Below are positions 26,990-52,029 of a DNA stretch of 64,000 nucleotides, piece after piece. The notes under the pieces are model-generated. The model ran no database searches. It was not told where the DNA came from and worked only from the letters and a program-made list of their open reading frames with translations. This DNA is from Octopus vulgaris (taxonomy: Eukaryota): positions 64,604,001-64,668,000 of the forward strand of contig OX597820.1 of assembly GCA_951406725.2 (NCBI GenBank), read 5' to 3'. Position numbers and translations under genes: made by a program. Position 1 is the stretch's first letter. Every line of letters starts with the position of its first letter.

Positions 26990-27180
26990 TGATTCAGTGT
27001 GGAGCAGTATGCCAAGAATTAGAACTCCGTTTATTTCGCCCTTTGGTAATGGGTTGCAGGTCAACACAGCTTTAATCATCAACCACTCGGACTTTCAAAT
27101 GTCTTTGCATTACTTCGTACGCATTCTCTCAGGACTGCTTCCCCGTATCAGGACATGTTTCATATTTTCTCTTGTTGGCG
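26990..27180 (-). repeat. Diverged dispersed repeat, probable LINE (RTE-like) 3' end; second copy at ~28880-29070
   Basis: Shared blocks tttcgc(c/t)ctttggtaatgg(g/a)ttgcaggt, ttgcattacttc, aggact, tatcaggac in the same order at both sites. Confidence 0.5.
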
Positions 27181-27565: not shown

Positions 27566-27979
27566 TATAACAATAAACACACACAAACGCATACACACAC
27601 ACCACACACATCTAGTATATATGAAGCCCAGTATGCATGTGTATAATGATTAATACATATTTTATCCAAACGTTACAAACGCATCACTTATGTCCCAAGG
27701 ATGGTCATGCACTATGACATTTTGTACAGAGCACCCACGTAAATTAACGTAAATGGACATAGTTTTTATACGTAGGATCTTCCATACTTTTTAAATCTTT
27801 TTATAAAAGTGAAAGGATTTTGTCTATTTATTTATTTCGACTGTCCAACTGCGCAGTGACCCAGTCAGGAAACGGGATTTAGAAGCTGTCATTTTTTTTT
27901 CATGTAAATAAATGTTTGTGTTAATTTAAATGATTTATTCAAAAAAATCTTATTTAGATGTTATTTTTAGGTACTTCTC

Positions 27980-28098
27980 ACTTTTGCCAGCTGAGTAAAC
28001 TGGAGCAACGTGAAATAAAGTATCTTGCTTAACACAACGGTCCGCCAGGTATTGAACTCATGACTATAAGCCATAACCACTTAGCCACGCGTCTTCAC
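27980..28098 (-). mobile_element. SINE family C, 5' fragment
   Basis: Reverse complement gtgaagacgcgtggctaagtggtta...gagttcaatacc...atttcacgttgctccagtttactcagctggc. Confidence 0.7.
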
Positions 28099-28132
28099 TA
28101 GACGCATATATACAAAGAACTATGTAATGGCT

Positions 28133-28580
28133 ATGTGAGGTATACTTGCCATCTCAATATGGCTAACCACTAAGGGTGGGTGTTACTGTAGCTTTTAGCC
28201 CAAGGAGAACATCGCCTCCAGCTGGCTTTAGGCACACTTTCTGTGTCCTTATGGTATTTGCAAAGGGAGGTCACCCTTCCCTCGTCAACCTAAGTGATAC
28301 GCACGGACTGCAGTTTCTAGGTGATTGTCGTGCGCTGATGACAGGTCAAAACCTAGAAACTGCAGTCCGTGAGTATCACTTAGGTTGACGAGGGAAGGGT
28401 GACCTGCCTTTGCAAATACCATAAGGGCACAGAAAGTTTGCCTAAAGCCAGCAGGAGACGATGTTCTCCTGGGGCTACAAACTACAGTAACACCCACCCT
28501 TATTGGTTAGCCATATTGAGATGACAGGTATACCTCATATTGTCGGGCAGTTACTGTTTATACCTCGTTCAGAGATTTAT
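28133..28580 (+). mobile_element. Non-autonomous palindromic element with apical hammerhead ribozyme, 40-nt tail and 12-bp target-site duplication
   Basis: Arms 28136-28322 and 28351-28537 (12 mismatches in ~187 nt), 28-nt loop, tail 28541-28580, direct repeats TATGTAATGGCT at 28121-28132 and 28581-28592. Confidence 0.9.
28331..28371 (+). ncRNA. Minimal type-I hammerhead ribozyme (Penelope-type)
   Basis: tgcg-CTGATGA-c-aggt-caaa-acct-a-GAAA-CTGCAG-TC-cgtg: intact core, stem II aggt/acct, palindromic stem III CTGCAG, GUC triplet with predicted cut after 28367, short stem I tgcg/cgtg. Confidence 0.8.
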
Positions 28581-29616
28581 TATGTAATGGCTGATTTCTC
28601 AGAAAGCATATTCTGCTCCTCATCTATTTTCTTGAACACATTTCTACACTGACAACTTTTGAACATCATGTACGATATTTGAGTTTCAAAACATTGATTC
28701 GGTGGGTGGAAGTTACAGATTGCTGACGGTTATGTATTCTTTCTATGCTACGTTGCAGACGACAGTGTACTGACGTTGCCTGAGTGCTTTTACATCATTT
28801 TTGATGATCCACCTCACCAAGGTACCGATATAGACCTCTTCTCTTATACCTATTAAAGCTTTCTTTCTACAACTCCTTTGACTCCATGGGAAGCATAGTG
28901 TGCTAAAAAGAGAACGCCATCTGTTTCGCTCTTTGGTAATGGATTGCAGGTATATTCAAGTTTGACCACCAGTCACAGGTCCTTTCTAGATTCCTTGCAT
29001 TACTTCATACCAAATCTCTGAGGACTACATCCCCTTATCAGGACCTGTTTCTTATTTCTTGTTGATACTGCTGGTCTGCTAACCATAATCTACAGAACTC
29101 TTTTTCTCTCAGACAAACGTGGGAACGACTACGGCAAAATTGACACGAGATTTGCTTACGCATTTTGTAGATGTGTGCCGTTGCTTCTATTATAATTTAA
29201 TTTCAGCGAATTCCTTACCGTTTAATAAATAGGGTACCGATTGGCGATAGCTGGAAGCCTTTTCATGAAAATTCACAATTTTGGCTCTGATAGCAGCAGA
29301 AATGGTAACTGTAGACATGTTCATAACTTTCAGAGAAGATTAAATTTGAGAGAAGACAAACAAAATACTGGTTAATATAGGACGACTATCATTTCTATCG
29401 GATTGTTGAAAATTATGCATCTAAAGCACAGGTTTCCTGTTTATTGCCGTTCCATTATTCCTAATTAATACAAAAACGGTATTAACCTTCGAAATGTGTT
29501 ATGAAAGATAAATAAATGAAGGCTAATAATTGCATATAAATATGTTTGTGTTGGTGTATGCGTCCGAGGTGCCTGTGAGTGAATGTGTATTTGTGTGTGT
29601 GTGAATAAATATATAG

Positions 29617-50267: not shown

Positions 50268-50734
50268 TATATATGTACATATATATAAGTATATATATGC
50301 ATATATATGTATATATGTGTATATGTGTGTATGTATGTGTATTTTTGTTTATGTATATGCATACATACACGTCAAGAGGGAGTAAACGTGAATTTCCTCT
50401 ATCAGGTCTCCATTCAATCGAATGTTAGAAATATGAGAATAAGAATGAGAAAGAAAAGAAAAAAAAGAGTAAAATCAGAATAGAATCTAATTAAAGTAAC
50501 ATCTGAATGTGTACGTCACTTCCGGCTATAGTTGTTTACCGCTTGACTAACAAAGGAACATTGTTAAGAACATTGTCAACAACAACAACAACATCATATA
50601 TAACAAAAGACAACAAATATATCGAGAAACAACAAATATCTCATGTGATGAAGAAAGTACCAATAACATCAAGAACATCGACATCAACTGATGCAAATAG
50701 TTAAAGAATTGCAACAAAAGCAGCAAGGACTACG

Positions 50735-50970
50735 GCGTCGTCGTCATCATCATCATCATCATCGTCATCAACAACAACAACAACAATAAAAGCAGTAACC
50801 AGAAAATCAGGAGGTGTAGTAGCTGCAGCATCATCAAGAGTAGTAGCAACAACATCATCAACCACAACAAAGACCTCAACAGCAGCAGCAGCAATAATAA
50901 TAATAGCAACAACAACAGCAGCAACAACAATAACGACAACGACAGCAAAGACATCAGCAATAATTTCGAA

Positions 50971-51066
<96 letters not shown>

Positions 51067-51069
51067 AAA

Positions 51070-51142
<73 letters not shown>

Positions 51143-51152
51143 ATTACTACTA
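50735..51152. repeat. Compound trinucleotide repeat region (CAT/CAA/CAG/ACT/GCT)
   Basis: Direct inspection; source of the spurious poly-V and poly-L ORFs. Confidence 0.9.
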
Positions 51153-52029
51153 CAGAGGATTCAGTGATAGCAACGGTGATAACTTCAGCAGAATGCACAC
51201 CAATGATACTCTTGGGAGACTCTCATAAAATAGTTTTGCTAGAAATATAATCCAAATTACTCTAAACTAGCATCCTTCTAACTTAAAATCAGGATGACAA
51301 AATCGGTAATGTAATATGTATATTCAATACAATATTAGTCTGTCAAATATATAATGATGTGATGGTCGTGGTTGGAATATTTTTGATTAATGCTGATTTG
51401 GTGATATGGAAAATGATAACGACAAGCAGAACTCAACTACCCAACGCGAAAATCTGTATGCAGGCGCTGATGCTGCTAAAAGTAACAGCTAATCTTTCCG
51501 AAACTTCACATTATGCCTTCCTGAAATACGAAGCACGCAGCATATCTGGTGTAACTCTAGGCTCTCAAACGGGAATAAATTTGCACTTCTCATGAGTTAC
51601 AAATGGATCATAAGAATAGCATTTGAGTAAACTGATGTACAATGTAATTGCATCGTTAGAATTTAGCTTACAAAAGCAATCAGTCCAGCAGCTGACTATT
51701 CTTCTTGCTTTCATACTAATAAATTATATATAAGTTATATTCAAGGCCACCATATGTAAATCAGTGATTACGTCAAGCGGTTAATGAATCTATATAACCG
51801 GTTAATGATATAGATTCATTAATCGGTTGACGTAAATGACATGCAATTTCTTACTTCTGAATGAACCAGTACCTTACCTAATTGATACATTTATGTTCTA
51901 AATATACTAAAACAGATCCTTAAATGAAGAGGTGAATTTGGGCATGAGTTCAGGGCATATGTCACAAAGTACTGCTCATGCAAAGAAAATACTCTTGGTT
52001 GAGTTTCGTGACATCTTTAAAATCAGAAT

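What the first reader, a model, noticed from the sequence alone, without database searches (positions are those of the whole stretch)
28302..28371. The ribozyme is sequestered by its own antisense arm: a built-in conformational switch
Seen in the sequence: the 3' half of the hammerhead (28351-28371) is perfectly complementary to the left arm (28302-28322). The 28-nt loop can also self-pair (tgattgtcgt with atgacaggtca), covering much of CUGAUGA. The minus strand has the GAAA-CUGCAG-UC half but no CUGANGA, so activity would be strand-specific. Inference: the full-length RNA is an inactive rod. Cleavage would require a transcript lacking the left arm, dimerisation through the palindromic stem III, or unwinding, similar to the alternative folds that silence viroid hammerheads.
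Basis: partly seen in the sequence, partly recalled or inferred. Interest (0 to 1): 0.7.

Follow-up and report, generated by a model that had tools for sequence, protein, structure and literature searches.

The report
Decayed ribozyme copy locked in hairpin
This is one aged copy of an abundant non-coding jumping repeat that carries a hammerhead self-cutting RNA motif; its mirror-image arm is the ordinary inverted piece such repeats leave when they insert, so the RNA is predicted to be permanently locked in a hairpin and is likely not an evolved on/off switch.

Summary
The sequence facts hold: 28351-28371 is the exact complement of 28302-28322, the minus strand lacks CUGANGA, and the rod is predicted to bury the ribozyme. 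The 'built-in switch' reading does not hold. 28133-28580 is one insertion (12-bp target duplication) of a 355-nt hammerhead retrozyme family, laid down in the standard Penelope pattern: a tail-bearing direct copy and a tail-less inverted copy joined at their truncated 5' ends. All 49 simple head-to-head insertions examined have different junctions. Only 5, this one included, leave the core in the loop, and the tight fold-back occurs once in the genome against 129 exact cores. The arms carry 13 private, uncompensated changes. The two folds differ by hundreds of kcal/mol, so the RNA is not bistable. Two private changes also wreck stem I without the arm (predicted pairing 0.03; family median 0.73). 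The scan already reported this kind of element and insertion pattern on other DNA of this genome. Cleavage and expression are untested.

The parts
28121..28132 (+). Left copy of a 12-bp target-site duplication
   Evidence: Identical to 28581-28592 (D16)
28133..28322 (-). Inverted, 5'-truncated, tail-less copy of the unit (unit positions q29-218, q1 = 28323); holds the GAAA / stem III / cut-site half of the ribozyme but no CUGANGA
28320..28322 (.). 3-nt microhomology at the head-to-head junction, shared by both arms
   Evidence: Overlap of 3; overlaps of 1-6 nt in 21 of 49 junctions (BLAST ends, approximate)
28320..28580 (+). Direct, 5'-truncated copy of the 355-nt unit (q-2 to about q258-261); lacks the ~92-nt linker that precedes the ribozyme in tandem copies
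28321..28379 (+). Type I hammerhead motif: stem I 28321-25/28375-79 and 28329-34/28368-73; CUGAUGA 28335-41; stem II 28343-46/28351-54; GAAA 28356-59; loopless palindromic stem III 28359-66; C17 = 28367
   Evidence: not detected by Rfam
28323..28350 (+). 28-nt loop = the difference between the two truncation points; can self-pair weakly
   Evidence: start differences in 49 insertions range from 0 to 630 nt
28332..28372 (+). Two private stem I substitutions (28332 G for family A; 28372 A for family C, giving a G.A mismatch); the left arm keeps the family base opposite 28372
28541..28580 (+). ~40-nt tail present on the direct copy only
   Evidence: 3' ends of family segments: 94 at q208-223, 83 at q255-266, 16 elsewhere, of 193
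28581..28592 (+). Right copy of the 12-bp target-site duplication
   Evidence: D16

Best explanation
28133-28580 is a single aged insertion of a 355-nt hammerhead-bearing repeat, made of a direct and an inverted truncated copy joined head to head, likely written by a Penelope-like reverse transcriptase, and any RNA read through it is predicted to be a permanently inactive hairpin rather than a switch. Shown: family membership, target duplication, two fixed 3' ends, variable junctions, uncompensated decay. Inferred mechanism: the enzyme nicks both target strands and primes at two fixed sites of one multimeric or circular RNA (q~218 and q~262); both cDNAs stop at variable points and are joined by microhomology. 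Here they stopped at q29 and q-2, which by chance puts the 5' half of the ribozyme in the loop. The control that is likely built into the family is the loopless palindromic stem III, which allows the active fold only between two ribozymes of a tandem transcript.
For: Family: 2337 first-look candidates, 40 scored, 92-95% identical; 129 exact cores, control 0; natural tandems with a 354-355-nt period. Junctions: of 129 distinct loci, 66 have an adjacent head-to-head pair and 49 are simple tail + tail-less pairs, with 49 different junctions. In 15 both arms carry the core, in 17 the other arm does not reach the ribozyme, 11 have no complete ribozyme, 1 covers only the stem I 3' strand, and 5 (window included) resemble the window. 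Without the window: 4 of 37 loci with a complete ribozyme, flat expectation 3.2. The tight fold-back pattern matches this locus only. Decay: 13 arm differences, all departures from the family base in one arm (4 left, 9 right), none compensatory; 3 keep G.U on the plus RNA and 3 on the minus RNA; arm divergence 12 of 183 sites, 36th of 41 loci, pooled 4.0%. ON state: stem I pairing 0.028 against a median 0.73 in 117 core-intact copies; the window's dimer MFE is not a double hammerhead, whereas it is in 57 of 117 copies and in L017. A natural tandem (L005) folds with stem III formed between its two ribozymes, P 0.53-0.76. The two arms of one insertion share family polymorphisms at 281 of 316 sites (0.89) against 0.65 when shuffled, 0 of 2000 shuffles reaching it. 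The architecture is described as typical of Penelope-like elements in PMC8557442 (passages) and PMC3846280 (passages); two internal priming sites and both-strand cleavage are shown in vitro in PMC11167929.
Against: No autonomous partner was tied to this unit: no pLTR-level similarity in 30 GIY-YIG loci (best hit 35 nt, E 0.015), and Penelope ORF remnants in only 2 of 137 family loci. The window-like class is slightly above a permutation null (5 of 49, P = 0.035 with the ascertained window; 4 of 48, P = 0.077 without). Folding is nearest-neighbour only, without Mg2+, tertiary contacts or protein; the Anolis Penelope ribozyme cuts only with its protein, so a protein could rescue a fold. The catalytic core of this copy is intact. 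The locus sample is not random (picked by BLAST rank and by an exact core pattern).
Confidence: 0.88

Rival explanations
1. The arm is an evolved or co-opted conformational switch: a long transcript is silent, and a short transcript, a helicase or a partner ribozyme releases cleavage at 28367/28368.
For: The core is intact and the arm covers exactly the GAAA / stem III / cut-site half. The window-like class is mildly above permutation (P 0.035-0.077).
Against: Junction unique; uncompensated, strand-symmetric decay; nine or more nt of arm already abolish the ribozyme fold, and the rod forms as soon as the 3' half is made; the arm-less RNA misfolds; the copy lacks the upstream linker of the unit.
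Confidence: 0.04
2. The hairpin arose as a by-product but acts as a long double-stranded RNA when read through, feeding small-RNA silencing of the family or A-to-I editing.
For: 190-bp, 93% stem, -350 kcal/mol; such head-to-head pairs are common (66 of 129 loci); Penelope copies give antisense small RNAs in a rotifer (PMC3846280, passages).
Against: No direct evidence; this would be a general property of dozens of loci, is compatible with the best explanation, and does not involve the ribozyme.
Confidence: 0.15
3. The palindrome is an assembly or library fold-back artefact.
For: No listed public contig bridged the junction, which is uninformative for a high-copy repeat.
Against: 13 differences between the arms, a 12-bp target duplication, and outer ends at the family's two fixed positions.
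Confidence: 0.01

Closest known systems
Metazoan non-LTR retrozymes (Cervera and de la Pena 2020, PMC7229834: passages and section 14 read; Li, Clavereau and Pollet 2026, 10.64898/2026.07.22.740005: part 1 of 5 read)
   Same: Non-coding unit of 355 nt (mussel 350-390 bp, axolotl 330/350), one type I hammerhead per unit, tandem copies, target duplications longer than 4 bp, weak palindromic helix III needing dimers as in axolotl.
   Different: Most copies here are dispersed, 5'-truncated and often inverted rather than long tandems; this copy is below unit length; circular RNA and cleavage are not shown.
Penelope-like element insertions with inverted pLTR and tail (Craig et al. 2021, PMC8557442, passages; Arkhipova et al. 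2013, PMC3846280, passages; Frangieh et al. 2024, PMC11167929, parts 1-2 of 4)
   Same: Inverted 5'-truncated copy abutting the direct copy head to head, tail at one end only, 9-12-bp target duplication, junction overlap, AT-rich or (TA)n targets, hammerhead in the repeat.
   Different: No RT or GIY-YIG ORF in the unit; tail about 40-44 nt, slightly above the 30-40 quoted; the mobilising element was not identified.
Dimeric hammerheads with palindromic helix III (Cervera and de la Pena 2014, PMC4209133, parts 1-2 of 4, citing Forster 1988 for the double hammerhead and its regulatory reading in small RNA pathogens)
   Same: Stem III has no loop and is a palindrome, so the active fold needs two ribozymes; predicted here for L017 and the L005 tandem.
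   Different: Stem II is 4 bp with a C.A pair at 10.1/11.1 instead of G-C, and stem I is long with an internal loop, closer to canonical than to minimal motifs. Viroid-type silencing is a conserved property of the replicon; the antisense arm here is not conserved.

Membership tests
Type I hammerhead ribozyme | CUGANGA, GAAA and UH core boxes in order | tested here: met
   28335-41, 28356-59, 28366-67; position 7 is the most variable column in 50 BLAST-picked copies (T26 G13 C6 A5)
Type I hammerhead ribozyme | Stems I and II formed, with covariation | tested here: inconclusive
   Family: stem I pairs in 78 of 117 copies (P > 0.5); one stem II pair A-U 45 / G-C 5 of 50, the 5 from 4 loci and possibly one event; 95.5% cells paired in 13 rows. 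Window copy: stem I not met (0.028)
Type I hammerhead ribozyme | Stem III | tested here: met
   Only between two ribozymes: 8-bp palindrome, -11.1 kcal/mol homoduplex; formed in a natural tandem; prediction only
Type I hammerhead ribozyme | Self-cleavage | not testable with these tools
   No assay; public data were contigs only
Non-LTR retrozyme | 150-450-bp non-coding unit with one type I hammerhead, in tandem | tested here: met
   354-355-nt period in L005 and L006; the window copy is a sub-unit fragment
Non-LTR retrozyme | Linear and circular unit-length RNAs | not testable with these tools
   No holder on record as RNA
Penelope-type insertion | Inverted 5'-truncated copy next to the direct copy, tail on one end, target duplication | tested here: met
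   (candidate duplications of 7 nt or more in 34 of 49, several inside TA repeats)
Autonomous Penelope-like element | RT plus GIY-YIG ORF between pLTRs | tested here: not met
   No ORF in the unit; no shared ORF-bearing Penelope flank among family loci. Non-autonomous.
Conformational RNA switch | Two folds of similar stability, one active | tested here: not met
   Rod -350 against -75 kcal/mol arm-less; stem I pairing 0.000 in the rod and 0.01-0.03 without the arm
Conformational RNA switch | Conservation of the regulatory strand and its register | tested here: not met
   49 of 49 junctions differ; 13 uncompensated changes; cross-species conservation could not be read

The most novel reading that the evidence does not exclude
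A chance inversion was co-opted as a cis-antisense lock on a genomic hammerhead: the long transcript is a silent rod, while a transcript starting inside the loop, helped by protein and by a partner ribozyme from another copy, cuts at 28367/28368. It would be a natural, insertion-born on/off ribozyme in an animal genome.
Probability: 0.04. Interest if true: 0.7.

Novelty: new member of a known kind. Interest (0 to 1): 0.15.

Why it matters
As it stands it is ordinary: a decayed copy among hundreds to thousands. It is useful as a caution, since head-to-head Penelope-type insertions make long hairpins that look like designed antisense switches. The family-level data (two fixed 3' ends, both arms sharing one template's variants, variable microhomology junctions) fit two-site priming by a Penelope enzyme and could help test how these inversions form; earlier notes of this scan say the same for this genome. 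If the switch were real it would be a rare natural case of a regulated genomic hammerhead.

Tried and rejected
Rfam found no hammerhead at gathering threshold in the window nor among 72 matches up to E 5 in L017, L005 and L001; the loopless stem III probably defeats the models, and the miRNA hits are generic hairpin or microsatellite matches below threshold. No RNA holder listed for 28000-28700; this says nothing on expression. Contigs of six runs were laid: no listed piece bridges the junction or an empty site; in two runs a right-flank contig reaches 21 letters into the tail, below the 31 needed, so sharing across samples is only a hint. Autonomous partner: 30 of 150 scored GIY-YIG loci compared, no link; flank all-against-all gave no Penelope flank. 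No host gene was identified: 61 open frames of 110 aa or more in the window are mostly simple repeats (not scanned against Pfam), so the direction of any read-through is unknown. A pile-up of 5' ends at the cut site was sought and not seen (three ends within q40-52, none at q44-48), but the sample is biased towards complete ribozymes. Rows dropped before counts: 8 of 137 loci as duplicates (7 same place; L107 same structure as L025 at another place), 63 without an adjacent head-to-head pair, 17 complex pairs; 29 of the 129 exact cores were not listed and not fetched. Literature searches listed no paper on an antisense-arm switch in a genomic hammerhead nor on this family; the library lacks most subscription papers and no supplements were read, and supplements of PMC7229834 or PMC4209133 may list this family.

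Full report
Observation. 28302-28322 and 28351-28371 are exact reverse complements, the inner end of a 190-nt, 93% inverted repeat with a 28-nt loop. The 21-nt perfect run is what 13 scattered mismatches would give one time in five (P = 0.21). The loop self-pairs at -7.9 kcal/mol, matched by 7.1% of 1000 shuffles, and does so also in a family copy with no arm. The minus strand has no CUGANGA. The ribozyme really begins at 28321.

What the element is. 28133-28580 is bounded by a 12-bp direct repeat (28121-28132, 28581-28592), so it is one insertion. It belongs to a repeat family of this 2.8-Gb genome: 2337 first-look candidates, of which 40 were scored at 92-95% identity, and 129 exact matches to the ribozyme core with none in the control. 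Natural tandems give a unit of 354-355 nt. With q1 = 28323, the window holds a direct copy q-2 to about q260 and an inverted copy q29-218 that overlap by 3 nt. Earlier scan notes call the animal an octopus; I did not check this.

The ribozyme. It is a type I hammerhead with an intact core, a 4-bp stem II, a two-part stem I and a loopless palindromic stem III. In 50 copies picked by BLAST, core position 7 is the most variable column and one stem II pair switches from A-U to G-C (45 and 5), both as expected of a motif under selection in the source elements (the freedom of position 7 is recalled knowledge). A typical copy (L017) folds as a double hammerhead when paired with itself, and a natural tandem (L005) forms stem III between its two ribozymes (P 0.53-0.76). 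This is the monomer/dimer control described in PMC4209133 (parts 1-2 of 4 read) and, for axolotl retrozymes, in PMC7229834 (passages).

Is the arm built in? No. I mapped 137 loci (30 by the ribozyme-containing query, 1 by the fold-back pattern, 30 by the 3' end, 76 by the exact core) and removed 8 duplicates. Of 129, 66 have an adjacent head-to-head pair, and 49 are simple pairs of one tail-bearing and one tail-less arm; the other 17 are complex and were left out. The outer (3') ends are fixed: 94 at q208-223, 83 at q255-266, 16 elsewhere, of 193 segments. The inner (5') ends are not: all 49 junctions differ and the two starts are uncorrelated (rho -0.07). In 15 both arms carry the core, in 17 the second arm stops short of the ribozyme, in 11 there is no complete ribozyme, in 1 only the stem I 3' strand is covered, and 5, the window included, leave the 5' half unpaired by the arm. 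Leaving out the window, that is 4 of 37 loci with a complete ribozyme, against 3.2 for a flat distribution. A permutation test gives P = 0.035 with the window and 0.077 without, so a slight excess is not excluded; the sample is biased towards complete ribozymes. The tight fold-back itself matches only this locus (exact match). This layout is the textbook Penelope insertion: an inverted 5'-truncated copy next to the direct copy and a 30-40-bp tail on one end (PMC8557442, passages; PMC3846280, passages).

Is the rod maintained? No sign of it. All 13 differences between the arms are departures from the family base in one arm, 4 left and 9 right, none compensatory. Three keep a G.U pair on the plus RNA and three on the minus RNA. 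Arm divergence is 12 of 183 sites, 36th of 41 measurable loci (pooled 4.0%), so this copy is among the more decayed.

Is it a switch? The rod is -350 kcal/mol against -75 for 28323-28580. Stem I pairing is 0.000 in the rod; nine nucleotides of arm already impose the rod; and because the arm lies 5', it pairs as soon as the 3' half is made. The arm-less state is not predicted to be active either: two private changes (28332, 28372) shift stem I into a register that buries the core. Stem I pairing is 0.028 against a median of 0.73 in 117 core-intact copies (27 of 117 are as low or lower), and the dimer MFE is not a double hammerhead, while it is in 57 of 117 copies. Setting 28372 to the family base returns 0.73 and the double fold. 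The left arm keeps the family base at that site, so the damage came after insertion. These are nearest-neighbour predictions; a protein-assisted fold, as for the Anolis Penelope ribozyme (PMC11167929), is not excluded.

Mechanism (inferred). The two arms of one insertion agree at 281 of 316 polymorphic sites, against 0.65 for shuffled pairs (0 of 2000), so they likely come from one source RNA. The two fixed 3' ends match the two internal priming sites and both-strand nicking shown in vitro for a Penelope enzyme (PMC11167929, parts 1-2 of 4). I infer priming from both nicks, variable 5' truncation and joining by microhomology (overlaps of 1-6 nt in 21 of 49). PMC3846280 proposes self-priming on an antisense template instead; my data do not decide between them. 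The genome has young Penelope-type elements with 781-aa open frames, but I could not tie one to this unit.

Expression could not be assessed: no holder on record as RNA, and the contigs laid did not bridge the junction.

Verdict. Observation confirmed; switch interpretation not supported beyond the trivial prediction that a read-through RNA is an inactive rod. A decayed member of a retrozyme family with a Penelope-type inversion; the scan has reported the same kind of element and pattern elsewhere in this genome, and had no note near this place or on the switch idea. Interest 0.15.

Noticed in passing
   Followed up: partly
Family positions q-16 to q-15, e.g. L008, L017, L019, L021, L108, L114, L116, L120: 12 of 193 segment 5' ends fall on these two positions, perhaps the transcription start. 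The linker upstream holds an octamer-like and a TATA-like motif (motifs recalled, untested). The window copy lacks this linker on both arms.
   Followed up: partly
G000:C1:11168450-11169125: Six matches to the unit's 3' end spaced 119 nt apart: a short tandem of the tail region without the ribozyme.
   Followed up: no
L025 (C14:73.35 Mb) and L107 (C14:74.68 Mb): The same complex four-piece insertion occurs at two places 1.3 Mb apart: segmental duplication or assembly duplicate.
   Followed up: no
L144, L149 and other GIY-YIG loci: A young Penelope-type family with many intact 781-aa frames; no similarity to this unit found.
   Followed up: partly
window 27021-27174 and 28911-29064; 27958-28029: A 154-nt direct repeat at 75% identity, and a very high-copy short repeat left of the insertion; both look like unrelated older repeats.
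   Followed up: no
window 50705-51250 +: Threonine/serine-rich open frame of 181 aa, largely a trinucleotide repeat.
   Followed up: no
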